A stretch of 64,000 bases of DNA, from the NCBI GenBank assembly GCA_026396415.1, contig JAPLWX010000028.1, forward strand, positions 1,922 to 65,921, in the 5' to 3' direction. Of the stretch, positions 8,981 to 30,178 are shown piece by piece (position 1 is the first letter of the stretch; every line of letters starts with the position of its first letter). Below the pieces are notes generated by a model that worked only from the letters and a program-made list of their open reading frames with translations, did no database searches and was not told the origin of the DNA. Made by a program: the position numbers and the translations under genes. The DNA is from Candidatus Micrarchaeota archaeon. GTDB taxonomy: Archaea > Micrarchaeota > Micrarchaeia > Anstonellales > Anstonellaceae.

Positions 8981-9175
8981 GCGCTTATTTTTCCCTTCAG
9001 GTTAATAATGGCTAGGCAGACGGAATTCGTCTTATTTTTTACATATTGCACGGATTTCGCCCTCTTTTTTCCCAAAAATGAGTTATTTAGCATGATTTTA
9101 CGGGGGCAAACCATTAAAAACCACCCGCAGCATAACATACTCCGCTGGCCAGAGAGAGGCAAGGAAGTTATACAC

Positions 9176-10150
9176 ATGAGTACGCTAAGGCATCAAAAGC
9201 AAACCATAAGCAAGCGAACGGGCAGAGAAAGCAATAGCAAATTCCGGCATGCGGCCAGGAAAACCGGCAGGTTCTTCGGCATGCTCTTCACAGGCGGGGC
9301 ATTGCTCACTGCTTTGAGCGGGCATACGCAGGACACCACCAGCGCGCCGGCCAGCAAGCCAACTGACAAGCGGTTTGAGATTACGATGGCAAACGCGGGC
9401 AAAGACCTGCCATTGGGTGCGAATGCCGCCAATACCTATGTCGTTCCCGCAAAAGACAGCCCCGACACGGTAGGAAACAGGATGGTAGCTGCGCGCGCGA
9501 AGCCAGCTGGTGGGAAGAATATGGAGCCGGGGCCTGATCCAAACCAAAAGTGGTGCGATGGGATAGAGATTGAGAACGGACAGATGATATTCAGGGGCAT
9601 TGAGAAGGATGGACGGCATGGGAGCGCAAGCATAGATATTAAGGCGTTTTTGGAAAAGTACGGTCTTTTCGATGCAACGACCAATAGCATAAAGTGGCAA
9701 CAGTTTAGAGTAATTAACGGAGAAAAAAAAGTATATTTTGTTGTTGAAGCGAACGGAATGTCGGTGCTGATAACCTCAAATCCAGATTTCGAAAAAGGGA
9801 ACGATACTTGGGGTAAAGCAGTATTTGCATCGGATGGAACGAAGATTTTTACACAGTTGGGTACGATGTTTGCGACTGATGATGGATCCATTGTTGCTAC
9901 TACTCCAACGACCCTTCTCATCATACAAACCGGAATTAATGGTAAGAAATTTGCACATACATACAAAGAAATGTTCAAGGAAGATGTTATTCTGAAAGCG
10001 CCCACATTTGAAAAAAGCGCAAAGGATGTTGTTGAAATGAGAGACGAAACGTTAGTTACCCCGCAAGGAAAAAAAGTAGTTATAACGATTCCTATCTATA
10101 ATTGGGATGGAATTTCTGCAGGTATAGATGAAAAGTTTACTAAGAATTAG
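9176..10150 (+). CDS. hypothetical membrane-anchored/secreted protein (low-GC island)
   Basis: Basic N-terminus, one TM (FFGMLFTGGALLTAL), then a Thr/Lys-rich soluble domain. Local GC is about 40% against about 60% in the rest of the window. Confidence 0.5.
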   Translation: MSTLRHQKQTISKRTGRESNSKFRHAARKTGRFFGMLFTGGALLTALSGHTQDTTSAPASKPTDKRFEITMANAGKDLPLGANAANTYVVPAKDSPDTVGNRMVAARAKPAGGKNMEPGPDPNQKWCDGIEIENGQMIFRGIEKDGRHGSASIDIKAFLEKYGLFDATTNSIKWQQFRVINGEKKVYFVVEANGMSVLITSNPDFEKGNDTWGKAVFASDGTKIFTQLGTMFATDDGSIVATTPTTLLIIQTGINGKKFAHTYKEMFKEDVILKAPTFEKSAKDVVEMRDETLVTPQGKKVVITIPIYNWDGISAGIDEKFTKN

Positions 10151-10161
10151 GGGTTGACGGC

Positions 10162-11004
10162 ATGGTTTTTGCAGAGTTGAATAACAATACAAAAACAACA
10201 AAAGCCGTGATAAATGAAGCGCCTGTGATAGAATCTCCAGTTCAAAAAGTTTCAACTGCAGTGACAGAAACGAATACAAACAGAAAGCTTGTCAAAGCAC
10301 TCCAGGCGTCTGGATTTGAAAACATAAAAATTAATTATAAGGATAAGGACAGAAAAGACGTTTCGCAGCCACCCCCAAATAGTTTTGTGGATTTGGCGGG
10401 TTTTAACAAACTAAAAGAATTCACTATTACTGCAAATATGAAGGATGAGAATGGAAATGTACACAATTGCAACATAAAAATTGCTAATGGTTTTGCCATG
10501 GTTGATGATGGTGGATCTCAACTTGTAGTAAGCAAAGGAAGTAATGCTTCATCGCGTGAATTGTTTAATTATATAGATAAGCAAGAAAAGATGGGAAATT
10601 TGAGCAAAAGTGATGTAAATAAAATAAAGACAGAATATGTAGAAAAAAATACTTTGTCGTGCTTGGACGAGTATTTACAAACGGACGCAAAGTTTCTATA
10701 TAGCTTTAACCAACAAAATATACCTGATAATAACACTCGAAACAAGGCAGATCAGTTGGTAAGAGACGGTAAGAAAAAAGAATATCTGGAATTGATAGAC
10801 AGCCTTGGCTTGCATGAAAAATTTATCGACTTTTTGAATCGAGAGATTCAGAACAAGGCTGGCGCAGGAGCAGTTTCCCCGTCCGATTTGCAGACTTCCT
10901 TTGTGCAGCAGGGCGTGCTGTCCGCGCAGGTCAACAGCGACTTGAACCTTGTCCAGGACAGGGAAAAGGACGCCGTCAAGAAGGGCGGCGGCGACACGGC
11001 TTGA
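10162..11004 (+). CDS. hypothetical protein (low-GC island, Asn/Lys-rich)
   Basis: 280-aa ORF contiguous with the previous gene. Atypical composition. No domain recognised. Confidence 0.45.
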   Translation: MVFAELNNNTKTTKAVINEAPVIESPVQKVSTAVTETNTNRKLVKALQASGFENIKINYKDKDRKDVSQPPPNSFVDLAGFNKLKEFTITANMKDENGNVHNCNIKIANGFAMVDDGGSQLVVSKGSNASSRELFNYIDKQEKMGNLSKSDVNKIKTEYVEKNTLSCLDEYLQTDAKFLYSFNQQNIPDNNTRNKADQLVRDGKKKEYLELIDSLGLHEKFIDFLNREIQNKAGAGAVSPSDLQTSFVQQGVLSAQVNSDLNLVQDREKDAVKKGGGDTA

Positions 11005-13508: not shown

Positions 13509-13655
13509 AGCATTTGGATTGGGTGACCCATCATTTTTAAACTCGCTTCGGCAGAAATGCTCTCGCAGGGATGGCAGTTGGAGCCGCTCTTGCGGCTGCC
13601 CGGCCATCCCAGGGCGACCTATTGCTTTTAATCCCCATATTGCAAGAACTGTCTC

Positions 13656-13768
13656 GCAGGGATGGCGGAGCCCGGTTTAACGCGCCAGACTCAAGATCTC
13701 CGCGCAAGTGCGCGGCATGCGTTATCTGGTGACTTAGGTCTTCGGGAGTTCGAATCTCCCTCCCTGCA
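13656..13768 (+). tRNA. tRNA-Leu(CAA) with ~28-nt intron after position 37
   Basis: Acceptor stem GCAGGGA/TCCCTGC, anticodon loop CTCAAGA, T arm GGGAG-TTCGAAT-CTCCC, long variable arm. The sequence atctccgcgcaagtgcgcggcatgcgtt splits the anticodon stem CCAGA/TCTGG. No CCA encoded. Confidence 0.65.
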
Positions 13769-13919
13769 CCTTGTATCATTCTATAGTTGTACCGCTGGAC
13801 TTCGACACGCCCCTAACCCAACTTAGTCAATTTACTGAGGTAAAAACGTGCCGAATTGTGCAGCAAGCTATAAATAGTACTTAACTCAGGACAGGGGGCT
13901 CACTCCGAGGTGAGCACCC

Positions 13920-15119
13920 ATGAACGAGTACGTTATGTACAAATCGCAAACCAACTTCGAGCAGGAGCTGGGAAGATTGAAGGCCTCGGCTTTGCCTGCG
14001 AAGGCCAAGACGCAAATCGAGAACTTCGCACGGATACGCCTTGCCAAAGGCTCGGGCAAGCTCCGCGTTGTGAAATGCATGTACTGCGTCCGGCTGCTTG
14101 CTCAGTGGCTCAACAAGGATTTTTCAAAGGCGACAAAGACCGACCTGATCCGGCTGGTCACCGATATTGACTCCAAAAACTATGCCGAATACACACGCTA
14201 CGATTTCAAAATTGTTTTGAAAATGTTCTACAAGTGGCTTCTTGGGAAAGACGAGGAATTTCCCAATGTCATCAAGTGGCTAAAGCCAAGGCTGAAAAAC
14301 GAAAAGCACAAACTACCAGAGGAATTATTGACAGTTGAGGAAGTGCAAAAGCTCGCCAACTCGACCACCAATCCACGCGACAAGGCGCTTATTTTGGCAT
14401 TATACGAGTCCGGCTGCCGCATTGGTGAGATGCTTTACCTCAAACTGAAGAACGTCCAGTTCGACAATTACGGAGTTGTGCTGATGGTGAACGGCAAGAC
14501 CGGAAGCCGAAGAGTCCGCATAATCGCAAGTGTTCAGGTTCTCGCCGCGTGGCTTCAGGAGCACCCGGACAAAGACAATCCGGATGCGCCTTTATGGCCT
14601 GCGAGATTGGCGAGATATCAGCCAGTGCCTTGCGCCTATCCCTCGATTCGCGCAATGCTCCGCAGGGCAAGCAAGGCAAGCGGCATAAGAAAACGTATTT
14701 ATCCGCATCTTTTCCGCCATTCAAGGGCAACCTCTTTGGCAAACAAACTGACAGAGGCGCAAATGAAAGAATATTTTGGCTGGACGCAAGGAAGCGAAAT
14801 GGCTGCCACCTACGTTCATTTGTCCGGTAGGGATGTTGACACTGCGCTTCTGCAATTGTATTCCATGAAGGACAAGCCGGTCGAAAAGGAGCCAAAACTA
14901 GACCTCAGAATCTGCTCCCGCTGCAAGGAAAAGAACTCGCCTACGCAGTCATTCTGCGGAAGGTGCGGCAACCCGTTTGACGAAAAGGTGCTCATCAGCG
15001 ACTACAACAAGCAGGGGAACGGAATAATGAACGTCCTGATGCAGGACCCGGAAGTGAAGGCGCTGCTCGTGAAAAAAGTATTCGCGATGGGGCTGGACAA
15101 GGAGCTGTTGGAGGAATAA
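13920..15119 (+). CDS. tyrosine recombinase/integrase (copy 1) with C-terminal zinc ribbon
   Basis: Catalytic R (CRIGE), HLFRHS (HxxR) and Y (ATYVHL). C-terminal CSRC-x11-CGRC zinc ribbon. Immediately downstream of the tRNA. Confidence 0.85.
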   Translation: MNEYVMYKSQTNFEQELGRLKASALPAKAKTQIENFARIRLAKGSGKLRVVKCMYCVRLLAQWLNKDFSKATKTDLIRLVTDIDSKNYAEYTRYDFKIVLKMFYKWLLGKDEEFPNVIKWLKPRLKNEKHKLPEELLTVEEVQKLANSTTNPRDKALILALYESGCRIGEMLYLKLKNVQFDNYGVVLMVNGKTGSRRVRIIASVQVLAAWLQEHPDKDNPDAPLWPARLARYQPVPCAYPSIRAMLRRASKASGIRKRIYPHLFRHSRATSLANKLTEAQMKEYFGWTQGSEMAATYVHLSGRDVDTALLQLYSMKDKPVEKEPKLDLRICSRCKEKNSPTQSFCGRCGNPFDEKVLISDYNKQGNGIMNVLMQDPEVKALLVKKVFAMGLDKELLEE

Positions 15120-15700
15120 TTTTTTTGCATTGGGCAGCCAGCCGAGCTGCTCAATCGTTTATAAAGAACTTTGAGCAGCTCAAACACCGTTCCTTGCGCT
15201 ATAATCGCTATCCAAACGTTGATATTTGAGCAGCTCGTACCTCCAGTATATCATTGCTGCGCAGCTGCTCAAAGCTGTTCAGTGAATCAGTCATACTGAA
15301 CAAATGACAACACAATATTCTCAGAAGAGCAAACCAATGAAGTAGGCTGTTCTGGCTGCTGGAACATGCATTTACGCTCAGTATTACGCTCAATTTTTGC
15401 TTGCCTTTTTGTTTTCTATGCGCAGCCAGGAATTACGCTCAGGTTTACGCTCAACGGAGTAAAATAAGCGCAGTAGCAGAGAAATACTATCTGGAGGCGA
15501 TTCGCTTAAATCAGGCGCAATTGGCGGCCAGAACTGGTGTTTAAGCGCAGAATAAGCGCAATCGCCACCGACTGCCGAGATTTTCGATGATGCAGAAAAA
15601 AGTAAGCGCAGATTAAGCGCAATGAATTTTCTGCGCACTTTTTGGAAATAAGCGCAGAGGGTGCGCAAAGGAAATTTTACAGAGAAAATGAATAGTTACA
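15120..15700. repeat. iteron-like repeat array 1 (GAGCAGCTC x4, TTACGCTCA x4, TAAGCGCA x6)
   Basis: Three families of 8-9 bp motifs, irregularly spaced, in a 580-bp non-coding region downstream of integrase 1. Confidence 0.6.
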
Positions 15701-15735
15701 CTAATAGTAGTCTAAAAAGGGTGAAAAATAAAAAA

Positions 15736-16221
15736 TTACTTGAACTTTGCGCGCTCCGGCTTTTTCTCCTCAGGTGGCATAAGCTGTCCAACATGATAGA
15801 ATGCGCGCATAATTTTTTCATCTAGAAATTGTCTGAAACTCTCCTGCTTGTTGTCTATTGCCCATCTTAGCTCGTTCTTGGGACCCGGAAATCCACCGGC
15901 ATCCTGAATAGGTATAACAATGCCATAGAGGTTCTCGAGCAACTCCTTGGTTGGCTTGGCATTTTTCAAGGAAGGGAGTATTTTCTCCCTGATCGTGCTT
16001 GCAAACACCCTATATATGCCCACATAGGCAGGATGTACATTTTTATCAGTGCCTAATGCTGTCATATCGACAAGTCGTTGCGTCACATCTGCTATCTCTT
16101 TTTTGAGGTTTGTCTCGGCTTTTTGCTTCTGTTCAAGCGCCTTTTGGCCTGGTTTGTCCTTGGCTGCTCCGATCATCGCCCCGCTTTTAGCCGGATCCGC
16201 CCAGTTTTGGAAAATCCACAT
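15736..16221 (-). CDS. hypothetical protein, integrative-element cargo (161 aa)
   Basis: The only ORF in element 1 apart from the integrase. No domain recognised. Confidence 0.45.
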   Translation of the reverse strand: MWIFQNWADPAKSGAMIGAAKDKPGQKALEQKQKAETNLKKEIADVTQRLVDMTALGTDKNVHPAYVGIYRVFASTIREKILPSLKNAKPTKELLENLYGIVIPIQDAGGFPGPKNELRWAIDNKQESFRQFLDEKIMRAFYHVGQLMPPEEKKPERAKFK

Positions 16222-16291
16222 AGTCTCGCCTCGGTCAAAATAGGGTGCAATCCTAATTTAAACCTTATCCCTATCCCCTAGTGGTTCCGGT

Positions 16292-16345
16292 CAGACTCTA
16301 GCATCATCCTTGAGTTGCTCCCCCTGCATCTTGTATCATGCACTA
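16292..16345. repeat. att-like direct repeat (copy B)
   Basis: cagactctagcatcatccttgagttgctccccctgcatcttgtatcatgcacta. Near-identical to copy C. The 3' part matches the tRNA-Leu 3' end. Confidence 0.65.
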
Positions 16346-16585
16346 GTCTTATCGCTATCTTTCGTCAATGCACGTCTATTCCTGCGTCAATCTGCAACTA
16401 GCATAGTAGGCACAATAATGCCAAATTACGCACGAACTATAATGAGGCCCCTGCCAAAACAATAATGGCATGAAAAAGAAGCATCTTGCTGCCCTCGTCA
16501 ATGCCCTAACTCCTCCTCGTTGCGTGTCTCGCCTAGGTTTATATAGAAGGTCAAGCAGGACAGGGGGCTCACTCCGAGGTTAAGG

Positions 16586-17728
16586 TTGAAGAACTCGCCC
16601 TTGCCTGCGAAAGCCAAAACACAGATTGAGAACTTCGCACGGATGCGCCTTGCCAAGGGCTCCGGCAAGCTCCGTGTTGTCAAGTGCATGTACTGTGTTC
16701 GCCTGCTCGCTCAGTGGCTCAACAAGGATTTTTCAAAGGCGACAAAGACCGACCTCATACGGCTGGTTACAGATATCGACTCCAAAAACTATGCTGAATA
16801 CACACGCTACGACTTCAAAATAGTCCTCAACATGTTCTATAAATGGCTTCTCGGAAAAGATGAGGAATTTCCCAAGGTCATCAAGTGGCTCAAGCCAAGG
16901 CTGAAGAACGAAAAGCACAAACTGCCGGAAGAATTGCTGACCGTTGAGGAAGTGCAAAAGCTCGCCAATTCCACCACCAATCCACGCGACAAGGCGCTTA
17001 TTTTGGCATTATACGAGTCAGGATGCCGCATAGGTGAAATGCTATACCTCAAACTGAAGAACGTCCAGTTCGACAATTACGGAGTTGTATTGATGGTGAA
17101 CGGCAAGACCGGCAGCCGGAGAGTCCGCATAATCGCAAGCGTTCAGGTTCTTGCCGCATGGCTGCAGGAGCATCCGGACAAAGACAACCCGGATGCTCCA
17201 TTATGGCCTGCGAGATTGGCGAGATACCAGCCAGTGCCTTGTGCCTATCCCTCAATACTCGCAATGCTTCGCAGGGCAAGCAAGGCAAGCGGCATAAGGA
17301 AACGCATTTATCCGCATCTTTTCCGCCATTCAAGGGCAACCTCTTTGGCAAACAAGCTGACAGAGGCGCAAATGAAAGAATACTTCGGTTGGACGCAAGG
17401 AAGCGAGATGGCTACAACTTATGTTCACCTCTCAGGGCGAGATGTGGACACCGCTCTTCTGCAATTGTATTCCATGAAGGACAAGCCGATTGAGAAAGAG
17501 CCAAAGCTCGACCTTCGAATCTGCTCACGCTGCAAGGAAAAGAACTCGCCAACGCAATCCTTCTGCGGAAGGTGCGGCAACCCGTTTGACGAAAAGGTGC
17601 TCATCAGCGACTACAACAAACAGGGGAACGGAATAATGAACGTCCTGATGCAGGACCCGGAGGTGAAGGCGCTTCTGGTCAAGAAGGTCTTTGCGATGGG
17701 GTTGGATAAGGAATTGCTGGAGGAATGA
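16586..17728 (+). CDS. tyrosine integrase (copy 2, N-terminally truncated, possible TTG start or pseudogene)
   Basis: More than 95% identical to copy 1 from AKAKTQIENF onward. The first ~22 codons are replaced by unrelated sequence. No in-frame ATG. The ORF track starts at TTG. Confidence 0.7.
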   Translation: MKNSPLPAKAKTQIENFARMRLAKGSGKLRVVKCMYCVRLLAQWLNKDFSKATKTDLIRLVTDIDSKNYAEYTRYDFKIVLNMFYKWLLGKDEEFPKVIKWLKPRLKNEKHKLPEELLTVEEVQKLANSTTNPRDKALILALYESGCRIGEMLYLKLKNVQFDNYGVVLMVNGKTGSRRVRIIASVQVLAAWLQEHPDKDNPDAPLWPARLARYQPVPCAYPSILAMLRRASKASGIRKRIYPHLFRHSRATSLANKLTEAQMKEYFGWTQGSEMATTYVHLSGRDVDTALLQLYSMKDKPIEKEPKLDLRICSRCKEKNSPTQSFCGRCGNPFDEKVLISDYNKQGNGIMNVLMQDPEVKALLVKKVFAMGLDKELLEE

Positions 17729-17734
17729 TTTCTT

Positions 17735-18440
17735 TTCTTTTGGGCATTGAACAGCTAGCCGAGCTGCGCAATCGTATATAAACATCTTTGCGCAGCTCAA
17801 ACGTTGTTTCTCACGCGATAAACGCTATCCAAACGTTGTTCTTTGCGCAGCTTTCTTCTCCAGAGTATACATGCGTGCAAGCTGCGCAATAGCTGCGCAA
17901 GGAATGAGTGCAATAAGAATAAGACAGCACAATATTCTCAGAAGAGCAAAACAATGAAGTAGGCTGTTCTGGCTGCTGGAACTAGCAATTACGCTCTGTA
18001 TTACGCTCAATTTTTGCTTAGCTAATCGCGTTTCTTGTCGCAGCCAGAGATTACGCTCAAGTTTACGCTCAACGGTGTAAAATAAGCGAGGTAGCAGACA
18101 AATACTCTCAGGAGGCGATTCGCTTAATTTCATAGGAATCGGACGCCAGAACGGGCGTTTAAGCGCAGAATAAGCGCAATGCCCACTGACTGTCAAGTTT
18201 CTCTAGCTCGCAGAAAAATTAAGCGCAGATTAAGCGCAACGAAAACAGGCAGACTCACAGATACTAGCAGGCAAATATTATCTGGGAACGAAACACGCGA
18301 TTTAAGCGCAATTGGCAGCCAGAACAAGAGTTTAAGCGCAAAATAAGCGCAATCGCCACCGACTGTCAGGGTTTTCAATGATGCAGAAAAAAGTAAGCGC
18401 AGGAGTAAGCGCAATGAATTTTCTGCGCATTTTTTGGAAA
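17735..18440. repeat. iteron-like repeat array 2 (GCGCAGCT, TTACGCTCA, TAAGCGCA families)
   Basis: Same architecture as array 1 with more TAAGCGCA copies (at least 10). Downstream of integrase 2. Confidence 0.6.
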
Positions 18441-18451
18441 GCTCTTTGGCG

Positions 18452-18820
18452 TCAAAATGACTGCTCTGTTTTTTCTGATTTTGGCTGCGCGAGTATGCCC
18501 TCAATTTCCTTATGCACCTGTTGCCGCAATTTGAAGGTGTTTCCCATCATCACATAGCCCTGCCAGCCCGAGTTGGATAGGAGTATCCTGCTTTGCTCGA
18601 TTTCGCCTGCCGCGTATTTTGACCTGAAAAGCTCAAGCCTGCCAAGAACCCGGCGCACGTTGCTTTTCTTGAGTATGCGGAAATGGTAGAATGCCCTGAA
18701 ACCAAGGAGCGGCACGCCAATCTGTTTTTCACCTCGCTCTGGGTAGGGGATTTTGCCGTCGTTTGTGGTGCGGATGGATTCGAATACCTGAAAGCCGAAC
18801 ATCACCGGCAGCGATTGCAC
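18452..18820 (-). CDS. hypothetical protein, element cargo (122 aa)
   Basis: ORF co-directional with the next gene. No domain recognised. Confidence 0.35.
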   Translation of the reverse strand: MQSLPVMFGFQVFESIRTTNDGKIPYPERGEKQIGVPLLGFRAFYHFRILKKSNVRRVLGRLELFRSKYAAGEIEQSRILLSNSGWQGYVMMGNTFKLRQQVHKEIEGILAQPKSEKTEQSF

Positions 18821-18834
18821 GCCGGGAGGGCAAT

Positions 18835-19962
18835 TTAGTGCTTGTTAGCCTTGAGGTCGCTCGCCTGCTGCGGGCTTATCCTGCGCAGAACCCTTCCATT
18901 GGGTGTGATGATAGTTTTGCCTTCGGAGATTATTTGTTCTGGTTTTATGCCTGCTGATTCGCTTGTGAAAAAGGGGGTGCCAGCCGGCTTTTCCTCAATG
19001 GTAAGCTTCCGTTTGATCTTGGGCAAGAGAAAGATATTTGCAACTGCATCCGCGTGGTCTTTTTCAGCCCATATGGTTTCACGGGTGGAAATGCAATAAC
19101 CATACTCAAAGTTGCTTATTGCATTAATGAGATGGTGGGGGCTTTTGAAATAGAGACTGAAAGCCGGATGATTGGGAGGCAGATTAATTTCCATGCCAGG
19201 AACCTCAATCAGTAGCACGTTTTTTGCAAATTTCTTGATATCACGCAGCCTGCCCTGGATCTCCCCCATGGCCTCGACCAGGTTAAACCTGAGTTGAGTT
19301 GCAATATCACTGGCAAACCGGCGCTCATTTTCGTCGAGTTCTTTGTTGTATTCCCTGATCGACTCGAAGTTCATTGAAGTAAAATACTGGATTAGGATGG
19401 GTGTGTTGGCGAGTCGTTTGAACTCCGAAAGAGGGAAGAAGTCATCTGGGGCTAAGCTGTTCATTGCATGGACTTCCATCACATAGGTCGATGTTTTACC
19501 GTTGTATTTTGCAAAAATGTCGCTTATCTGCCTTACGCGCTGAAGGTAATCCCAGATGCCCAATGCGCAGCCGCAGGCTTTGTTCGAGTCGGCAAGTTCC
19601 CCTGCCGAGATTTTTTTGCGGATTGACCAACCGATTTCCATTCCATCGTCATTTTGCATCTGTTCTGTTTTCACGCCCATCCGTTCCAGCTTTTCTGCAA
19701 GCGCCCGCTGGAATGGCAAGGTGGTTGGATGCTCACTTGTATGCGGCGATAACAGCACTACTCTTGATGGCTTGGATGGCATAGTGAGGCGTCTGACGAG
19801 TGGAATATCCTTGAACACTGGTTCGCGTATTCTAAGAGTCTGGCGCAATTCAAACCCTAAACTCATGTTATAAAAAGTGTATGCAAGGGTATTTAAAGCT
19901 TTCATCAGGTAGCTCAAGCCAGGGGGCGAAGCCACCTCAAACCCCAAACTCCCCGGTCTCAA
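18835..19962 (-). CDS. hypothetical protein, element cargo (~375 aa)
   Basis: Long ORF in the lower-GC element. No confident domain assignment. Confidence 0.45.
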   Translation of the reverse strand: MRPGSLGFEVASPPGLSYLMKALNTLAYTFYNMSLGFELRQTLRIREPVFKDIPLVRRLTMPSKPSRVVLLSPHTSEHPTTLPFQRALAEKLERMGVKTEQMQNDDGMEIGWSIRKKISAGELADSNKACGCALGIWDYLQRVRQISDIFAKYNGKTSTYVMEVHAMNSLAPDDFFPLSEFKRLANTPILIQYFTSMNFESIREYNKELDENERRFASDIATQLRFNLVEAMGEIQGRLRDIKKFAKNVLLIEVPGMEINLPPNHPAFSLYFKSPHHLINAISNFEYGYCISTRETIWAEKDHADAVANIFLLPKIKRKLTIEEKPAGTPFFTSESAGIKPEQIISEGKTIITPNGRVLRRISPQQASDLKANKH

Positions 19963-20040
19963 TCCACTTCGCCTTCACGAGCTCAAAAGAAGGCTGGCTG
20001 AGAGAGAACGCCGGGAACTCTGATGCCGCTCAGCCTCTAG

Positions 20041-20094
20041 CATCATCCTTGAGTTGCTCCCCCTGCATCTTGTATCATGCACTAATCCTGCCGC
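20041..20094. repeat. att-like direct repeat (copy C)
   Basis: Identical to copy B over 48 nt. Followed by a remnant of the integrase-upstream region (ctaactctccctcgttgcgtgtct) and a TAAGCGCA iteron. Confidence 0.65.
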
Positions 20095-20228
20095 TGCATT
20101 TCACAGCCCCTCGCCTGTCCTCCGTCAAGCCCCTAACTCTCCCTCGTTGCGTGTCTGTATTAACGGGCGAAGTTTCCTTAGGCTGCCCATGTCTTCTAAA
20201 ATGCAGAAAAGATTAAGCGCAATTGCTT

Positions 20229-22031
20229 TCAGTTGAAAATCTGCCTGTTTGCCCCTATCGGCGTGCCTTTGCATCTGATATAGCTTGGGACAATCACTTC
20301 GCCATTTTTGTAAATGACGGAGTTTCTCATCCCCTCGATGCTGGCAGGGAAAAAGCCGTTTTTTAAGTTGAAAACCGCGCCGGTTATGTCCCCGGCTGCC
20401 CCGACCACTATCGTCCCGGGCGATTTTTCAGAAGTCATGTCCACAATGTTTGCCTTGCCTTTCTCATTCTTGCCGCCAAAGGAGCAGCCATAGTATATTG
20501 CGAATTTTGCGCCAGCAGTGAGTTTTCCAACGTAATACTGGTCTTTCTTTTCATTGGCATCCACCCTCGTGTCGCTTGGGCTTGCGGGATAAAACTCTGA
20601 GCCGATGATGCTTTTGCTTCCCACCCGGATGCTGCTGTCCTTTTTCCCTTCAATGGGCTTGACAGCCTTGTTGTTGGTCTCCACGTGCGTTTCGCCAAAA
20701 AGTGAGGAATTCAGCGCCATGTCGCCAGGTTCGCCATGGCCTGCATAAATCATGCCAAAGCCCCTTTTGGCAAGGTTGCCCCCTTCGTTGGCCTCCACAG
20801 CGTCCCTTATCACCCCAAATTGGGGCACAGAGCCAGCCTCGAAAACATACAGCTTGTAATGCTTTGAAAGTTCAAACAGCGTATCCTGGAGGTTCCTGAA
20901 TGTATCCGAAGCGCCCATCAAGCCCATAAGGCTTTCCGAGTTGCCGGCTCCACCCCGTGGCAGCACGACAATAAGGACATCCTTTCCGGAATTATAGGAC
21001 GGGTCCTCATAGTTCTTGATAAGCTCGTCAACCAGCCTCATGTCGCCCTGTTTCCATAGCCTGTCCGCATTTGCTATCCCGAAGTACCTATGCAGCTTGA
21101 GGAATTTGTCCAGCGTCTCAGGCTTGGTGTCAGGCAAGCCACGGTAAAGCAGATTTTCCAGGTAGCGCAGCGGCTCCTTCTCACCCTGTTCAATTATCTT
21201 GGCCAGGAAATCCGCTTCGACCTTGAGGGTTTCCAGCTTTTCCCCTATTGGCTTGTCCCGGGATAGTATCCTGAGGCTCCAGAAAGCTTCGTATGATGGA
21301 TTCTGCTCAAGCTGCGATGCCGAAAATCCGAACTTGAATATGTCCTCTATTGTTTTATTTTGCAGGTCATCCCTTCCTTCTTCATGGGCATTTCCAAGAA
21401 AGTAATCGAGCGTTTTGAGCAGGCTTAGCGCATGGCTGGGCTCGACTTTGCTGGTTCCAGCATCATACAATGCGCGCTCCTGCGCAAGGATGGAAACGTA
21501 CTTATCGAGTATTTTGGTCCTGAGGCCGGAATTCTCTGGGCGGAGGAGGAAGTCGGAATTTTCCAATTCCTCTGTGAAGAAGGTAAAATCGCCAATATCT
21601 GGGTTTTTCAGATGGCGAGCTGCGGCTGTTCCTGCAAAAACAAGTTCCTTGAAAAGAGCGATTTTTTCAGGCGCCTTCATTTTTTCAAATGCGCCCTCCT
21701 TGTTCCCCAGCCACCCGTAAAAGTCATCGCCAAGGCTGCTGACCAACAGCCCAAGCCCATCTTGTGTGTTCCGAGGGTTCTTTTGGAAAGTGAGGCCTTC
21801 GGTTGCCACGGTTGCATCGGAAAGGATAAGGAGGAAATTTTCATAGGCGGAATTGCCCATGTCACGCTTTACCCTATCCAGCACGGCGATTGCGCGTTCG
21901 TCCCCTTTTAGCACATCGCGCAGCATCCCGTCGATTTCTTCAGCCTTTTCATGAGGATCCGCCTTATCCGAAATAATCGCAGGGATGCTGTATGGAACGC
22001 CCTCCAGGCCTTGCTTGTCATTATCTGCCAT
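20229..22031 (-). CDS. hypothetical protein with C-terminal clan-CD-peptidase-like (caspase/gingipain/CHAT-like) His-Gly/Cys dyad
   Basis: About 600 aa. C-terminal blocks LIVVLPRGGAGN, MIYAGHGEPGD and AIYYGCSFGG follow the hydrophobic-x4 + HG and hydrophobic-x4 + C arrangement of clan CD proteases. The N-terminal ~400 aa are helical with unknown function. Confidence 0.45.
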   Translation of the reverse strand: MADNDKQGLEGVPYSIPAIISDKADPHEKAEEIDGMLRDVLKGDERAIAVLDRVKRDMGNSAYENFLLILSDATVATEGLTFQKNPRNTQDGLGLLVSSLGDDFYGWLGNKEGAFEKMKAPEKIALFKELVFAGTAAARHLKNPDIGDFTFFTEELENSDFLLRPENSGLRTKILDKYVSILAQERALYDAGTSKVEPSHALSLLKTLDYFLGNAHEEGRDDLQNKTIEDIFKFGFSASQLEQNPSYEAFWSLRILSRDKPIGEKLETLKVEADFLAKIIEQGEKEPLRYLENLLYRGLPDTKPETLDKFLKLHRYFGIANADRLWKQGDMRLVDELIKNYEDPSYNSGKDVLIVVLPRGGAGNSESLMGLMGASDTFRNLQDTLFELSKHYKLYVFEAGSVPQFGVIRDAVEANEGGNLAKRGFGMIYAGHGEPGDMALNSSLFGETHVETNNKAVKPIEGKKDSSIRVGSKSIIGSEFYPASPSDTRVDANEKKDQYYVGKLTAGAKFAIYYGCSFGGKNEKGKANIVDMTSEKSPGTIVVGAAGDITGAVFNLKNGFFPASIEGMRNSVIYKNGEVIVPSYIRCKGTPIGANRQIFN

Positions 22032-22212
22032 ATGCCTCCATTGCTTATTCTTCAAAAACCCTTTAAATGCACATCTTTCCAGCGCCATTTCATCATTGAA
22101 ATGGATAAGCGCACTTCTGCGGATTGAGCCTGGCGAAATCTTGCATGATACTATGGTTGCACCGCCGCCTTTTGCAGGTTTCCGGATTTTGCCAGCCGAT
22201 CGTCAGCCTCTA

Positions 22213-22246
22213 GCATCATCCTTGGGTTGCCCCTGCACTTTTTGTC
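22213..22246. repeat. att-like direct repeat (copy D, degenerate), distal boundary of element array
   Basis: cagcctctagcatcatccttgggttgcccctgcac lies immediately after the ubiA-family gene stop. Confidence 0.55.
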
Positions 22247-22250
22247 CTCT

Positions 22251-23105
22251 TTAAAGCAGGCTCGCCGCATATCCGAGCAGCCCCACGCCAAGCGCGAGGA
22301 GGGAGGATTTGCGCAGTGAGATTAGGGTGGCGCTGTCTTTCTCAGTTGCGCGCGCGGCAACGTAAGCCATTGCTGCAAAGGAGAGCGCGGTGATGATGAT
22401 TAAGCCCAGCGAGAGGATGTTTGTGCGGAGCCCAAGCGCAAAAGGCGAAAGCGACAGGGGCACGAGCGCCGCGTAGAGGAGCGCGGCAAAGAGGAGGGAA
22501 TTTTTCTTCCCGATGACAACAGGCAATGTGCGCGCGTTCCTGTGCAAGACATCGCCTTCCATGTCCTCTGCTGACTTGATGATTTCCCTGCCAAGCCCAG
22601 CCACAAATGCCACGAGCGCGATTGCCCAAATCTGCGGGTAAAGCGCGGGCGCGACCACGAGGTTCCCGAAAAGGAATGGGATTGCCATGGAGGCTGCGAT
22701 GTACATGTTTCCCACGAGCAACAGCTCCTTAAGCTTGAAGTTGTAGGCAATCGAGAGGAAGGCGAATATGATGGTGATGCAAAGCGCGGCAGGGGGAAGG
22801 GGAAGCGCGGCTGCGATGCCTATGATATAGCAAGATGCGGCTGCGATTAGAGCGTGGCTGGGCTTGATTTCACCGCTTGCAATAGGCCTGTCCCCCCTCT
22901 TGTTCGCCTTGTCGGTTTTCACGTCAAAGCAATCGTTGAGCGCAAAGCTGCCCATTTCTATGAAGACAGGCACTGCAAGGGAGCAAAGCAGCAGCGGGAG
23001 GGCAGGGAGCGCGCCTGACAGGAGCTCGCCCAGCAATACCGCCACGGCTAGCAGGAGCGCGTGCTCGATGCGGAAGAGCCGGAGATACGCGGATATTGCC
23101 TTCAT
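22251..23105 (-). CDS. UbiA-family prenyltransferase, probable digeranylgeranylglyceryl phosphate synthase
   Basis: NDCFDVKTDKAN (NDxxDxxxD) motif. Eight or nine TM segments. 284 aa, typical of archaeal DGGGPS. Confidence 0.75.
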   Translation of the reverse strand: MKAISAYLRLFRIEHALLLAVAVLLGELLSGALPALPLLLCSLAVPVFIEMGSFALNDCFDVKTDKANKRGDRPIASGEIKPSHALIAAASCYIIGIAAALPLPPAALCITIIFAFLSIAYNFKLKELLLVGNMYIAASMAIPFLFGNLVVAPALYPQIWAIALVAFVAGLGREIIKSAEDMEGDVLHRNARTLPVVIGKKNSLLFAALLYAALVPLSLSPFALGLRTNILSLGLIIITALSFAAMAYVAARATEKDSATLISLRKSSLLALGVGLLGYAASLL

Positions 23106-23263
23106 GGAAATGGTTGCGAGAGGGAGGTTTAAAAGGTGTATTTTCCATCTCTTCCACGTGAGAGGATATGGACATATTTCACATAGGTTTGCCTAGGACA
23201 TTTTTGGGCGTGAAAAATTCCGGCGGGAATTTTTCAGAAGTGGAGCCCAGAGGCTCCACTAAG

Positions 23264-24085
23264 ATGCCGAATGACGGGAAGACGGCGCGCTACGTGGTGC
23301 TCTCCTCGCCCTACGAGGGAACGGTGTCATACGGCACGGGCACGAAAAACGGGCCGCATGCCATTATCGAGGCTTCGCGCCAGGTGGAGACATATGACAT
23401 CGAGCTTGCGCGCGATTTTGAGGGGTGCGGCATTTACACCGCGGACGAGCTCGAGGTGAGCCATGCCTCGCCCGAGAAGAACTGCGGGTACGTTCAGGAG
23501 GCAGTGGAGGAAGTGCTCAAGGCGGGCAAGGTGCCCATTCTGCTTGGCGGGGAGCACTCAGTCTCGGTGGGCGCCTTCAGCGCAATTGCTGCGAGTGGGA
23601 AGGCAAAGGACGTTTCAGTGCTGCATTTGGATGCGCACGCGGACATGAGGGACGAGTACGAGGGGACGAAATTCAACCATGCCTGCGTGATGAGAAGGTG
23701 CCGCGAGAAGCTGCATGCCGTCTCTGTTGGAGTGAGGAGCTACTCGCTTGAAGAAGCGCAGGAAATTAAAAGGCAGAAGTGCGGCATTTTCGGCGTGGAG
23801 TTTAACGAGGGCGACGTGCTGAAGAAGCTTCGCAAGGATGTTTACATTTCAATTGATTTGGACGCGTTTGACCCGTCCGAATGTCCTGCTGTGGGGACGC
23901 CTGAGCCTGGCGGCTTGAGGTGGAAGCAAGTTACTTCGCTTTTGAGAAAGGTATGCGAACAGAGGCGCATAATAGGCTTTGACGTGGTGGAGCTCGCCCC
24001 GATACCAGGGCAGCATGTGTCAGACTTTTTGGCAGCAAGGCTCGTTTACAAGCTGATTTGCTACATTGAGGCGAATAGGAAGTGA
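23264..24085 (+). CDS. speB: agmatinase/ureohydrolase family protein
   Basis: GGEHS, DAHADM and SIDLDAFDP manganese-binding motifs of the arginase/agmatinase fold. An upstream in-frame ATG at 23168 is also possible. Confidence 0.8.
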   Translation: MPNDGKTARYVVLSSPYEGTVSYGTGTKNGPHAIIEASRQVETYDIELARDFEGCGIYTADELEVSHASPEKNCGYVQEAVEEVLKAGKVPILLGGEHSVSVGAFSAIAASGKAKDVSVLHLDAHADMRDEYEGTKFNHACVMRRCREKLHAVSVGVRSYSLEEAQEIKRQKCGIFGVEFNEGDVLKKLRKDVYISIDLDAFDPSECPAVGTPEPGGLRWKQVTSLLRKVCEQRRIIGFDVVELAPIPGQHVSDFLAARLVYKLICYIEANRK

Positions 24086-24090
24086 CGCGG

Positions 24091-25368
24091 ATGGCAAACG
24101 AAACGAAAACTTCGGCAATTTCAGGCTTTTACAAGCTAACACGCAGCGAAAGGATTGGCAAGGTGGCGCGGTTTTCAGCATTGACAGAGGAGCAGAAAAG
24201 GCAACTGGCATCTGACTCGCCTCTTGGCTTCGAGGTGGCGTCAAGGATGGCGGAAAACGCGCTTGGCCTTCATGCCATGCCGCTTTGCGTTGCAACGAAC
24301 TTTTTGGTGAATGGGAAGGAAGTGCTGGTGCCCATGGCAATCGAGGAGCCCTCGGTCGTCGCGGCAGCAAGCAATGGCGCGAAGCTTTGCAGGGACAGCG
24401 GCGGGTTTTTCGCGGTTGCGGACGCCCCAATCATGGTGGGGCAGGTCCAGATTGTGGGCGCCAATGACGCGCAAAAGGCGGTGCGCGAACTCAACTCGAA
24501 AAAGGCAGGGATAATCAGTGCCGCCGAGCCTTTCGCCGCGGGCATTGCGAAGTACGGGGGCGGCATAATGGGCTTTTCCGCGCGCGCGCTGCCCACGGAA
24601 AGGGGGGAAATGGCGATCGCCGAGTTTGACATCGACGTGCGCGACTCCATGGGCGCAAACACGGTGAATACCATATTGGAGGGCGTGGCGCCTAAAATTG
24701 AGGAAATATCCGGAGGGAAAGTGCGCCTCAGGATACTCTCAAATCTTGCAGTGAAGCGGCTGGTGAAGGCAAGGGCAGTCTGGAAGCGAGGCACCATCGG
24801 AGCGGACTGCGTGGAGGGCGTGCTTGACGGCTGGGCATTTGCAGACGCCGACATTTACCGCGCATGCACGCACAACAAGGGGATAATGAACGGCATTGAT
24901 GCGGTTGCAGTGGCAACCGGCAATGACTGGCGCGCCGTCGAGGCAGGGGCGCACGCATTTGCCGCTGCAGGCGGAAGGTACCGCCCGCTCACCCGCTTCA
25001 AGAAGCTTGCAAACGGGGATTTGGAAGGGGAGATTGAGCTTCCCATGGCAGTGGGCATTGTGGGAGGGGCGACCCGCTCGCTCCCCTCTGCGCAGGCTGC
25101 GCTTGCCATATTGGGGGTGAAAACCTCGCAGGAGCTTGCGTGCGTGATGGCATCAGCCGGCCTCGCGCAGAATTTTGCCGCGCTGCGCGCGCTGTCCACA
25201 GAAGGGATACAGCGCGGCCATATGGAGCTCCATGCGAAAAATCTGGCGATTGCATCAGGCGCGAGCGGAGAGGAGTCCGACAGGGTGGCTGCGCGCATGA
25301 TCGGGGAAAATGATATTTCTGCGAAAAAAGCGGCAGAGCTTTTGGAAAAGGAAAGAAGGAAAAAGTAG
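24091..25368 (+). CDS. hmgA: 3-hydroxy-3-methylglutaryl-CoA reductase (class I)
   Basis: EEPSVVAAASN, DSMGANTVN and GTIGADCV blocks. About 425 aa. Confidence 0.9.
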   Translation: MANETKTSAISGFYKLTRSERIGKVARFSALTEEQKRQLASDSPLGFEVASRMAENALGLHAMPLCVATNFLVNGKEVLVPMAIEEPSVVAAASNGAKLCRDSGGFFAVADAPIMVGQVQIVGANDAQKAVRELNSKKAGIISAAEPFAAGIAKYGGGIMGFSARALPTERGEMAIAEFDIDVRDSMGANTVNTILEGVAPKIEEISGGKVRLRILSNLAVKRLVKARAVWKRGTIGADCVEGVLDGWAFADADIYRACTHNKGIMNGIDAVAVATGNDWRAVEAGAHAFAAAGGRYRPLTRFKKLANGDLEGEIELPMAVGIVGGATRSLPSAQAALAILGVKTSQELACVMASAGLAQNFAALRALSTEGIQRGHMELHAKNLAIASGASGEESDRVAARMIGENDISAKKAAELLEKERRKK

Positions 25369-28154: not shown

Positions 28155-28166
28155 GGCGGCGGATGA

Positions 28167-29111: not shown

Positions 29112-29125
29112 CTGCGTAGCGCGCC

Positions 29126-30169: not shown

Positions 30170-30178
30170 GGAAAAGCC

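What the first reader, a model, noticed from the sequence alone, without database searches (positions are those of the whole stretch)
15120..15700. Iteron-like arrays of three 8-9 bp motifs downstream of each integrase
Each non-coding region of 580-700 bp holds several copies of a palindromic GAGCAGCTC/GCGCAGCT motif, then TTACGCTCA (x4, paired), then TAAGCGCA (6 to over 10 copies, often tandem pairs 3 nt apart). The second array is at 17735-18440. Conserved order with diverged sequence between the two elements fits a replication origin or a partition/regulator binding array of a small replicon, not CRISPR or coding sequence.
Basis: seen in the sequence. Interest (0 to 1): 0.6.

Follow-up and report, generated by a model that had tools for sequence, protein, structure and literature searches.

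The report
Binding-site arrays in Micrarchaeota mini-elements
Two small mobile elements sitting side by side at a tRNA gene of a tiny symbiotic archaeon each carry, right after their integrase gene, a 600-700 bp gene-free stretch packed with short, precisely spaced recognition sites that look like docking arrays for a DNA-binding protein made elsewhere; such control regions have not been described for mobile elements of this archaeal group.

Summary
All three motifs are strongly enriched and lie at the stated coordinates, in the same order in both regions. The window is a Candidatus Micrarchaeota (DPANN) chromosome. At tRNA-Leu(CAA) it holds three tandem integrated elements bounded by att repeats. 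E1 and E2 have the layout integrase, array, then converging cargo. E3 is an integrase-less remnant.

The arrays are non-coding and show no conserved RNA fold. Only the sites are constrained: sites are 95% identical between E1 and E2, spacers 75%, and integrase four-fold sites 69%. The three motifs share a core, GC(G/T)CAA. Module A sites are inverted pairs around a consensus TATA box. Module B and C sites are head-to-tail pairs 11-12 bp apart, with pairs about 61 bp apart.

Homologous or analogous arrays follow integrase homologues in many Micrarchaeota genomes and metagenomes. They are modular, and distant lineages use different site sequences. Array-bearing elements share no gene except the integrase, and integrase sequence does not track site type.

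My best reading is an operator/iteron-like platform for a protein supplied in trans, acting as the element's control or maintenance region. A true origin or centromere is not shown: there is no rep or par gene, no unwinding element and no circular form.

The parts
13656..13768 (+). tRNA-Leu(CAA) gene with an archaeal-type intron. It is the integration target, and its 3' end carries the first att core.
   Evidence: Rfam tRNA model, 45.6 bits, E = 2.3e-7. ARAGORN misses it.
13762..13779 (+). attL core of element E1, CCCTGCACCTTGTATCAT.
   Evidence: Three exact or near-exact copies in the window against 0.06 expected.
13920..15119 (+). E1 tyrosine integrase, 399 aa, with a C-terminal zinc ribbon.
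   Evidence: Pfam Phage_integrase, E = 3.5e-19, plus sub-threshold zinc-ribbon hits. More than 4,700 homologues, almost all from Micrarchaeota.
15120..15735 (+). Array 1: the whole gene-free stretch between integrase 1 and the 3' end of orf161.
15143..15273 (+). Array 1, module A (T flavour). An inverted pair of AGCTGCTCAA / TTGAGCAGCT brackets the TATA box TTTATAAA (15160-15167). A second inverted pair lies at 15226-15272.
   Evidence: The TATA box matches the host promoter consensus. The module is conserved after integrases down to 43% identity.
15372..15453 (+). Array 1, module B. Two head-to-tail pairs of TTACGCTCA, 12 nt apart within a pair and 61 nt between pairs. A box, CAATATTCTCAG, precedes it near 15314.
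15465..15621 (+). Array 1, module C unit. It holds a box (AAATACTATCTGG), an inverted copy CGCTTAA, single sites, and two TAAGCGCA pairs (15542/15553 and 15603/15614). The TTTTC..GAAAAAA element lies between the pairs.
15629..15669 (+). Terminal dyad TTCTGCGCA-N-TAAGCGCAGA-GGGTGCGCAA. It is also conserved at the end of the single unit in orf286-type elements.
   Evidence: BLAST matches to L002, L004 and L047.
15736..16221 (-). orf161, the cargo gene of E1. It converges on the array.
   Evidence: ORF list. No Pfam or PHROG match. No homologue in any related locus.
16296..16339 (+). att copy 2 (attR of E1 and attL of E2): a conserved arm plus the core.
16586..17728 (+). E2 integrase. Its N-terminus is truncated by a 57-nt deletion. 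It is 369/375 aa identical to the E1 integrase.
17729..18451 (+). Array 2: the whole gene-free stretch between integrase 2 and the 3' end of orf122.
17761..17901 (+). Array 2, module A (G flavour). Five TTGCGCAGCT sites in total; the first inverted pair brackets the TATA box TATATAAA.
17989..18071 (+). Array 2, module B: two pairs of TTACGCTC(A/T).
18083..18414 (+). Array 2, two tandem module C units of about 173 nt, with TAAGCGCA pairs at 18160/18171, 18220/18231, 18333/18344 and 18394/18406.
   Evidence: A 127-nt direct repeat at 72% identity. Also.
18452..19962 (-). E2 cargo: orf122 (18452..18820) and orf375 (18835..19962), both converging on the array.
20035..20078 (+). att copy 3 (attR of E2 and attL of E3).
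20203..20223 (+). Remnant half C unit, GCAGAAAAGATTAAGCGCAA, in the integrase-less element E3 (20079-22240; cargo orf619 at 20229..22088, minus strand).
22205..22240 (+). Degenerate att copy 4, the right end of the island. G+C rises from about 48-50% to about 57% beyond it.

Best explanation
What it is: the two regions are homologous, gene-free arrays of short cassettes. Together with the integrase gene they form the conserved backbone of a family of 2.5-6.5-kb elements that integrate at tRNA genes of Micrarchaeota.

Anatomy: every cassette is a set of 8-13-bp recognition sites. In this lineage the sites share the core GC(G/T)CAA.
- Module A: inverted pairs that bracket a consensus archaeal TATA box.
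- Modules B and C: head-to-tail pairs one helical turn apart, with pairs about six turns apart. All sites therefore face one side of the helix.

Proposed mechanism: the arrays are a docking platform for a small, probably dimeric, sequence-specific DNA-binding protein that the element does not encode. The host or a sibling element supplies it in trans. The arrays would then work like the iteron-plus-operator regions, or the ribbon-helix-helix centromere/operator regions, of plasmids. Cooperative occupation of phased sites would close the embedded TATA promoters. It would also give the element a cis-acting handle for control or maintenance, such as copy or excision control, or handling of the excised circle.

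Shown: the sites, their phasing, site-restricted conservation, non-coding nature, modularity, linkage to the integrase, and the absence of a binder encoded in cis.

Inferred: that a protein binds, that it comes in trans, and what the binding achieves.
For: - Enrichment and order of the motifs.
- Shared core GC[GT]CAA: 22 of the window's 102 + strand copies lie in 2% of the sequence.
- Helical phasing: 11-12 bp within pairs and 60-62 bp between pairs.
- Constraint limited to the sites. E1 against E2 gives sites 95.4% identical, spacers 75.0%, and integrase four-fold sites 68.8%. Across five elements, 69% of site columns are invariant against 43% of spacer columns, P = 2e-6.
- No reading frame, no Rfam match and no conserved RNA fold.
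- The same A-B-C arrays follow integrase homologues in L003, L005, L007, L120 and L131. L006 carries a B variant.
- Module A follows integrases that are only 43-51% identical, and is 89% identical to E1's in L078, whose integrase is 47% identical.
- Distant elements use the same syntax with different site sequences. Often a direct pair, a TATA box and an inverted copy occur together.
- The TATA boxes match host promoters.
- Clusters of phased pairs occur only next to integrases in 1.16 Mb of related DNA. The background is 0.4 pairs per 600 nt against 3-8 in the arrays.
- Array-bearing elements share no gene other than the integrase.
Against: - No binding protein has been identified, and binding itself is only inferred.
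- There is no replication or partition gene and no positionally conserved AT-rich unwinding element.
- No circular contig was found. IMG/VR holds neither the arrays nor close relatives of the integrase or orf286.
- The host part of the window shows no use of the same site pairs, so a host regulon is not evident.
- Cassettes with a good TATA box could simply be promoters for short non-coding or antisense transcripts.
- The trend for arrays and the orf286 nuclease gene to exclude each other is not significant (1 of 11 against 21 of 57, P = 0.09).
Confidence: 0.45

Rival explanations
1. A true vegetative replication origin. The direct repeats would be iterons at which an initiator melts DNA and starts replication of the excised circle.
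For: - Direct repeats plus inverted copies that share a half-site, which is the logic of iteron plasmids.
- Copy number of the units varies: one C unit in E1 and two in E2.
- Every family member keeps at least one unit.
- Cryptic integrated elements of archaea often lack a recognisable replication protein (PMC6563490).
Against: - No initiator gene in E1, E2 or relatives.
- No conserved AT-rich unwinding element: the maximum is 68-82% AT over 40 nt, at inconsistent positions.
- Sites are 8-13 bp at one-turn spacing, not 17-22 bp at two turns.
- No circular or extrachromosomal copy was found.
Confidence: 0.15
2. Purely transcriptional cassettes. They would be orphan operator-controlled promoters making short non-coding or antisense RNAs that tune the integrase and the converging cargo gene, a retroregulation-like control placed at the 3' ends of the genes.
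For: - Consensus TATA boxes sit exactly between inverted sites in module A and in distant units.
- The layout resembles a real autoregulated promoter seen in L061.
- The arrays always lie between converging genes, and module A starts within a few bases of the integrase stop.
Against: - No conserved transcript end, RNA fold or small ORF.
- The B and C units of E1 and E2 lack a good TATA box.
- More than 20 sites seems excessive for controlling one or two promoters.
- The orientation of module A relative to the integrase is not fixed (L127).
Confidence: 0.22
3. A hijacking signal. The arrays would copy the recognition sites of a protein from a helper element, such as a packaging, transfer or nicking protein or the orf286 nuclease of sibling elements, so that the mini-element is mobilised or replicated by the helper, as satellites do.
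For: - orf286-type siblings with 94-98% identical integrases carry one unit built from the same site vocabulary, whereas E1 and E2 carry several units and no orf286.
- orf286 has a restriction-endonuclease-like PD-(D/E)xK domain. The closest folds include the site-specific nickase N.BspD6I and OkrAI.
- One related assembly (CAITKI01) holds both kinds of element.
Against: - Exclusivity of arrays and orf286 is not significant.
- There is no evidence that orf286 binds these sites.
- No helper virus or plasmid with these sites was found.
Confidence: 0.1
4. Accessory (arm-type) binding sites for the element's own integrase, used to build the recombination complex.
For: - The integrase is the only protein common to all array-bearing elements.
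- Head-to-tail pairs one turn apart resemble the arm-type sites of lambda-like attP (own knowledge).
- The arrays abut the integrase gene.
Against: - The arrays lie 650-1,600 bp from the nearest att core.
- Site type does not follow integrase sequence in any region of the protein. L026 shares the B and C sites at 23-64% regional identity, while L018, with a 73% identical integrase, uses TTAGGGGT.
- Module A flavours differ between integrases that are 98% identical.
- The integrase has no separate N-terminal arm-binding domain, and E2's lacks the first 19 residues.
Confidence: 0.05
5. A coding region, a CRISPR-like array, a structured RNA gene, or a chance or low-complexity repeat.
For: Open frames of up to 125 codons exist on the minus strand.
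Against: - Substitutions are even across codon phases, indels shift the frame, and each frame has many stops.
- Repeats are 8-13 bp with no unique spacers.
- No Rfam family matches.
- The consensus fold is weak and has an unfavourable covariation term.
- Shuffles never reach the observed motif counts.
Confidence: 0.03

Closest known systems
Iteron plus inverted-repeat operator regions of theta plasmids (F, P1 incC/incA, pPS10, R6K, pSC101). This comparison rests on my own knowledge.
   Same: Several head-to-tail copies of one site lie near inverted copies that share the half-site and overlap a promoter element. Copy number varies. Site specificity differs between related replicons.
   Different: Here the sites are 8-13 bp at one-turn spacing, not 17-22 bp at two turns. 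No rep gene sits next to them and no AT-rich unwinding region is present. The promoter elements have no gene downstream. The elements are integrated.
Centromere/operator arrays bound by ribbon-helix-helix proteins (R1 parC/ParR, pSM19035 omega heptads, TP228 parH/ParG), and the tandem-repeat operators of the SSV1 repressor F55. This comparison rests on my own knowledge.
   Same: Short direct and inverted repeats phased by the helical turn. They are clustered on both sides of core promoter elements and can serve as operator and handle at once.
   Different: No partition NTPase gene, no gene for the binding protein and no regulated gene lies beside the arrays. Three or more site subtypes are arranged as separate cassettes.
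Arm-type sites of lambda-family attP. This comparison rests on my own knowledge.
   Same: Pairs of about 10-bp direct repeats one turn apart, linked to a tyrosine integrase.
   Different: The arrays are 0.65-1.6 kb from the core. There is no arm-binding domain, and site type does not co-vary with the integrase.
Cryptic integrated elements of archaea (Thaumarchaeota; PMC6563490).
   Same: Small elements from 2.6 kb upward, with a tyrosine integrase, flanked by att direct repeats, and in many cases without a recognisable replication protein.
   Different: In the passages I read, that survey describes gene content only and no conserved non-coding arrays. The host phylum here is Micrarchaeota, and the integrase carries a C-terminal zinc ribbon.
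Satellite elements that copy a helper's cis sites (P4 ori/crr iterons, PLE of Vibrio cholerae; see 10.1101/2021.02.21.432181, listed).
   Same: An integrase-bearing mini-element whose repeated sites are read by a protein it may not encode.
   Different: No helper has been identified here. PLE and P4 encode their own initiators.

Membership tests
Iteron-type plasmid replication origin | Tandem direct repeats of about 17-22 bp, spaced about two helical turns apart | tested here: not met
   Sites are 8-13 bp, in pairs 11-12 bp apart, with pairs about 61 bp apart.
Iteron-type plasmid replication origin | An adjacent gene for the initiator that binds the repeats | tested here: not met
   There is no rep-like gene, and array-bearing elements share no gene except the integrase.
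Iteron-type plasmid replication origin | An AT-rich DNA-unwinding element next to the repeats | tested here: not met
   The richest 40-nt stretch is 68-82% AT, and its position differs among 14 arrays.
Iteron-type plasmid replication origin | Inverted copies that share the half-site and overlap a promoter | tested here: met
   Module A has inverted sites with the shared core GC(G/T)CAA bracketing a TATA box. No gene follows the promoter.
Iteron-type plasmid replication origin | Supports autonomous replication | not testable with these tools
   This needs read-depth or junction analysis, or a replication assay. No circular contig is among the loci held.
Plasmid partition centromere (ribbon-helix-helix type) | Arrays of short direct and inverted repeats phased by the helical turn | tested here: met
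Plasmid partition centromere (ribbon-helix-helix type) | Adjacent genes for a centromere-binding protein and a partition NTPase | tested here: not met
   None in E1, E2 or related elements.
Lambda-type attP arm sites | Sites lie within about 250 bp of the crossover core | tested here: not met
   The nearest att core is 650 bp away in E1 and 1,600 bp away in E2.
Lambda-type attP arm sites | Site sequence follows the integrase that reads it | tested here: not met
   No region of the integrase tracks site type. The two module A flavours occur with integrases that are 98% identical.
CRISPR array | Repeats of 23-50 nt separated by unique spacers of similar length | tested here: not met
   Repeats are 8-13 nt, and the spacers are homologous between the two elements.
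Known or structured non-coding RNA | A match to a curated RNA family, or a conserved fold with compensatory changes | tested here: not met
   No Rfam hit other than the tRNA. RNAalifold gives -16.8 kcal/mol over 178 columns, with covariation term +0.49 and 1 of 21 pairs compensatory.
Archaeal operator-controlled promoter | A TATA box of host consensus flanked or overlapped by repeated operator sites | tested here: met
   Module A, and the units of L016, L024, L026 and L037. Host TATA consensus.
Archaeal operator-controlled promoter | A gene or defined transcript downstream | tested here: not met
   No conserved ORF follows any cassette. Transcripts cannot be tested with these tools.
Cryptic integrated element with a tyrosine integrase (applies to the elements, not the arrays) | Integrase next to a tRNA gene, with the element bounded by direct repeats of the tRNA 3' end | tested here: met
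   Window. Relatives.
Dispersed extragenic repeats (REP/BIME- or MITE-like) | Many copies scattered over the host chromosome | tested here: not met
   There are none elsewhere in the 64-kb window. In 1.16 Mb of related DNA they occur only beside integrases or island genes. A complete genome was not scanned.

The most novel reading that the evidence does not exclude
The cassettes are decoy or hijack modules. On this reading, integrase-only mini-elements of Micrarchaeota collect and shuffle gene-free copies of the operator or recognition regions of other elements in the same cell, for example the orf286-nuclease elements. That would let them capture those elements' trans-acting proteins for their own control, replication or transfer. 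It would amount to a layer of hyperparasitic, protein-free 'satellite' mobile elements inside an already parasitic DPANN archaeon.
Probability: 0.15. Interest if true: 0.8.

Novelty: new variant of a known kind. Interest (0 to 1): 0.55.

Why it matters
Mobile elements of DPANN archaea are almost unknown, and no cis-acting control, origin or centromere sequence has been defined for them. This work defines a widespread family of very small tRNA-integrating elements. Their only constant parts are an integrase and a modular, gene-free array of phased recognition sites.

If the arrays are maintenance or control regions read by a trans-acting protein, three things follow:
- They give a concrete handle for finding that protein, by pull-down with a 10-bp site.
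- They would help explain how elements without replication genes persist.
- They could supply parts for genetic tools in uncultured or co-cultured Micrarchaeota.

If they are decoys for proteins of sibling elements, they would reveal competition between mobile elements inside ultra-small symbionts.

Tried and rejected
- Coding region: rejected.
- Known RNA family or structured RNA: rejected for the C units.
- CRISPR: rejected on repeat size and on homologous spacers.
- orf161 or orf122 as the binder: orf161 has no homologue in any related locus. orf122 homologues occur in other loci but not in the homologous A-B-C arrays.
- Integrase as the specificity determinant: region-by-region identity shows no link with site type.
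- A conserved gene downstream of module A: none found.
- Small conserved peptide after the TATA-like box of orf286-type units: the ATG is not conserved.
- Rolling-circle nick site in the box AAATATTATC: the flanking stems are not conserved, judged by reading.
- Host regulon: no phased GC(G/T)CA pairs beyond chance in the host part of the window.
- Viral or plasmid relatives. Four IMG/VR scans for motif pairs, module A and the integrase gave only chance hits or nothing. A fifth scan, for orf286, also found nothing.
- Circular contigs: none.
- Mutual exclusion of arrays and orf286: only a trend, P = 0.09.
- Metagenome hits L125 and L129 are unrelated bacterial DNA with SusD-like genes, so they are chance matches.
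- Literature searches found no description of these arrays.
Full report
**Observation.**
- TAAGCGCA occurs 18 times in the window against 2.7 expected from shuffles. Fifteen copies lie in the two regions, all on the + strand.
- TTACGCTCA occurs 7 times against 0.27 expected, all in the regions.
- TTGMGCAGCT occurs 10 times against 0.81 expected, 9 in the regions.
- The two regions align at 80% identity with the same order of motifs.
- Both begin at the stop codon of an integrase gene. Their real extents are 15120-15735 and 17729-18451.

**Context.** The window is a chromosome piece of a Candidatus Micrarchaeota archaeon.
- Host genes include inositol-1-phosphate synthase, a UbiA prenyltransferase and HMG-CoA reductase.
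- Integrase homologues come almost only from Micrarchaeota assemblies.
- A segment with 48-50% G+C (13.8-22.2 kb) lies in a host background of about 57%.
- It starts at a tRNA-Leu(CAA) gene with an intron (13656-13768).
- It is divided by copies of an 18-bp att core at 13762, 16322 and 20061, plus a degenerate copy at 22205-22240.

The island therefore holds three tandem integrated elements:
- E1 (13780-16339): integrase, array 1, orf161.
- E2 (16340-20078): integrase, array 2, orf122, orf375.
- E3 (20079-22240): a remnant that has lost the integrase and all but half a C unit, and keeps orf619.

The cargo genes have no Pfam match, and in PHROGs only orf122 gives one weak hit. In E1 and E2 the array lies between the 3' end of the integrase gene and the 3' end of a converging cargo gene.

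**Anatomy.** The arrays are built of cassettes.
- Module A, about 130 bp. An inverted pair AGCTGC(T/G)CAA / TTG(A/C)GCAGCT brackets TTTATAAA or TATATAAA. After about 45 bp comes a second inverted pair.
- The TATA element matches the TATA boxes seen 30-50 nt upstream of host genes in this window.
- In full form an A site is the 13-bp dyad TTGAGC-N-GCTCAA.
- Modules B and C are units of about 166-173 bp. Each starts with a TATA-like box (CAATATTCTCAG or AAATAYTMTCWGG). Each holds two head-to-tail pairs of TTACGCTCA (B) or TAAGCGCA (C).
- Pairs are spaced 11-12 bp internally and 60-62 bp from each other. C units also carry single and inverted copies and a conserved TTTTC..GAAAAAA element.
- E2 has two C units and E1 has one.
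- All three site types share the core GC(G/T)CAA. Of the window's 102 + strand copies, 22 lie in the arrays, against 5 of 72 on the other strand.

**Not coding, not a folded RNA, and constrained only at the sites.**
- Between E1 and E2, substitutions fall evenly on the three codon phases (32/33/35).
- Four 1-nt indels break any frame, and every frame has 6-16 stops.
- Rfam finds only the tRNA.
- Seven C units give a weak consensus fold with an unfavourable covariation term.
- The integrases of E1 and E2 are 369/375 identical in protein, but only 69% identical at four-fold degenerate sites. The two elements are therefore old enough for neutral DNA to have diverged.
- Over the same time the array spacers reached 75% identity, while the site positions stayed at 95%. 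The five site differences are the concerted A-to-C change of module A.
- Across five elements, 69% of site columns are invariant against 43% of spacer columns (P = 2e-6).

This pattern is expected of protein recognition sites. Direct repeats that change together cannot be explained by RNA pairing.

**Comparative evidence.**
- The same A-B-C array follows integrase homologues in L003, L005, L007, L120 and L131. L006 has a variant with TTACGCGCA.
- A metagenome scan for the first half of module A returned 24 stretches. About 20 are genuine.
- Module A often occurs in two to four tandem copies of both flavours, and often without B or C.
- It follows integrases only 43-51% identical to that of E1.
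- In L078 the integrase is 47% identical, yet module A is 89% identical to E1's.
- The flavour difference between E1 and E2 is therefore a module swap, not drift in place.
- Module A always lies between converging genes. Its orientation relative to the integrase is not fixed (L127).

More distant elements (integrase 53-73% identical) carry arrays with the same grammar but other site sequences:
- CAAGCGCA and TT(C/A)CGTGCA in L026.
- TTGCGCGAG and TCCTGCGCA in L030.
- CATTGTGTT in L024.
- ACACATTGA in L037.
- AGGTCAAAA in L033, L037 and L041.
- AGGTCGTAAT in L041.

These often follow the pattern of a direct pair, a TATA box, an inverted copy and a further direct copy. In 1.16 Mb of related DNA, clusters of phased pairs occur only beside integrases. 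The other flagged places are coding repeats. The related elements are 3-6.5 kb, bounded by repeats of the 3' end of tRNA-Leu or of tRNAs that ARAGORN did not call. Their cargo is unrelated: type IIG restriction-modification enzymes, transporters, surface proteins, an Lrp-like regulator and an HNH-like protein.

**A sister architecture.**
- In about 30 of 79 genome loci the integrase is followed by a 270-290-aa protein, called orf286 here and not present in the window.
- Its model (pLDDT 85.8) has two long helices and a C-terminal domain with conserved E, PD and D-x-E-x-x-K residues.
- The closest folds are restriction-endonuclease-like: OkrAI, the nickase N.BspD6I, Hef/XPF and Hjc. All have E above 1e-3, so only the fold class is assigned.
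- After orf286 comes a single unit: a strong TATA-like box (ACATATATAATATAGGGAG), a site, a TTTTC-TCGAATG-AAAA element, and further sites including an inverted pair.
- The site sequence varies by element (TTAGGGGT, TTAAGGGC, TTAAGCGC, TTAGGCGC), but is consistent within each element.
- The orf286-type elements L002 and L047, whose integrases are 95-98% identical to that of E1, use the same TTAAGCGC sites and the same terminal dyad as the C units of E1 and E2.

**Who binds.**
- No gene other than the integrase is common to array-bearing elements.
- Integrase sequence does not follow site type in any of five regions. The two module A flavours also occur with integrases that are 98% identical.
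- The integrase is therefore an unlikely specificity determinant.
- The host part of the window shows no excess of phased core pairs.
- The binder is most simply a protein supplied in trans, from the host or from a sibling element such as the orf286 type.
- Arrays and orf286 tend to exclude each other (1 of 11 against 21 of 57), but not significantly (P = 0.09).

**What it does.** The directly supported statement is that these are cis-acting arrays of phased recognition sites, partly built around promoter-like TATA elements, and that they form the conserved non-coding backbone of this element family.

I commit to an operator/iteron-like control or maintenance platform read by a trans-acting protein (confidence 0.45). 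In grammar it is closest to the iteron-plus-operator regions of theta plasmids. It is also close to the ribbon-helix-helix centromere/operator arrays: R1 parC, omega sites, and the F55 operators of SSV1.

Several defining features of a replication origin or a centromere were tested and not met:
- No initiator or partition genes.
- No conserved unwinding element.
- Repeat size and spacing unlike iterons.
- No circular or viral copies.

For that reason I do not file the arrays as either. The main rivals are purely transcriptional cassettes making antisense or non-coding RNA (0.22), a true origin (0.15), a hijacking signal for a helper protein (0.10), integrase accessory sites (0.05), and coding, RNA or chance explanations (0.03).

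**Novelty.**
- Literature searches found no description of such arrays or of this element family in Micrarchaeota.
- The nearest published class is the cryptic integrated elements of Thaumarchaeota. These are as small as 2.6 kb and, in many cases, lack a recognisable replication protein (PMC6563490).
- I rate the finding a new variant of a known kind: phased binding-site arrays of mobile elements.
- The unusual features are the gene-free, shufflable cassettes, three site subtypes on one core, and the absence of any cis-encoded binder.

**Limits.**
- All evidence comes from sequence comparison of metagenome-derived DNA.
- Binding, transcription and replication were not and could not be tested here.
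- No complete genome was scanned for the sites.

Noticed in passing
window 20079-22240: A third tandem element, E3, is a decayed copy. It keeps the segment that lies upstream of the integrase promoter in E2. It then jumps to a half C unit (GCAGAAAAGATTAAGCGCAA, 20203-20223), the 619-aa orf619 with no known domain, and a degenerate att copy at 22205-22240.
   Followed up: partly
window 16556-16650: The E2 integrase gene has a 57-nt deletion that removes the start codon and the first 19 codons, so it could start at TTG 16586 or ATG 16643. The rest is 369/375 aa identical to E1, while four-fold sites are only 69% identical. It has therefore stayed under purifying selection.
   Followed up: partly
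window 13553-13768: tRNA-Leu(CAA) carries an intron of about 31 nt. ARAGORN misses it, but Rfam finds it in E-value mode. A 14-nt copy of its 5' end (CTCGCAGGGATGGC) lies 90 nt upstream, inside a dyad GGGATGGC..GCCATCCC that overlaps the start of the GNAT acetyltransferase ORF.
   Followed up: no
window 16296-16339, 20035-20078, 22205-22240: The att core contains the dyad TGCAT-N8-ATGCA, a plausible pair of integrase core sites. In the three internal att copies it is preceded by a conserved 26-nt arm, CTCTAGCATCATCCTTGAGTTGCTCC, which differs from the tRNA sequence.
   Followed up: partly
L002 9203-10063 and about 30 other loci (not in the window): A family of hypothetical proteins of 270-290 aa commonly follows this integrase. 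They have two long N-terminal helices and a conserved PD-(D/E)xK nuclease domain. The family has no Pfam, PHROG or PDB sequence match.
   Followed up: partly
L003 2212-5151, L007 10006-12966, L078 9780-12668, L123 2083-4971 (oriented copy): L003 and L007 carry a single-chain type IIG restriction-modification enzyme (Eco57I/MmeI-like, 979-986 aa) as their main cargo. L078 and L123 carry 962-aa ORFs in the same position; these were not scanned against Pfam, and the L123 protein looks unrelated on reading. At least part of this mini-element family therefore ferries defence genes.
   Followed up: partly
window 9000-11000: A low-G+C stretch (39-47%) in the host region upstream of the island contains orf280 (10162..11004), which has no domain match. 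It may be another foreign insert.
   Followed up: no
L001 18-7593 against window 22255-30886: A related species (about 80-85% nucleotide identity) has the same host genes next to its integrase, but inverted relative to the integrase. This suggests a rearrangement at the att/tRNA site, or use of a different tRNA-Leu copy.
   Followed up: no
L061 9980-10110: L061 has a textbook-looking autoregulated promoter: GTTCACT/AGTGAAC dyads around a TATA box, directly upstream of a winged-helix-like gene. It was useful as a local example of a real operator-promoter in these elements.
   Followed up: no
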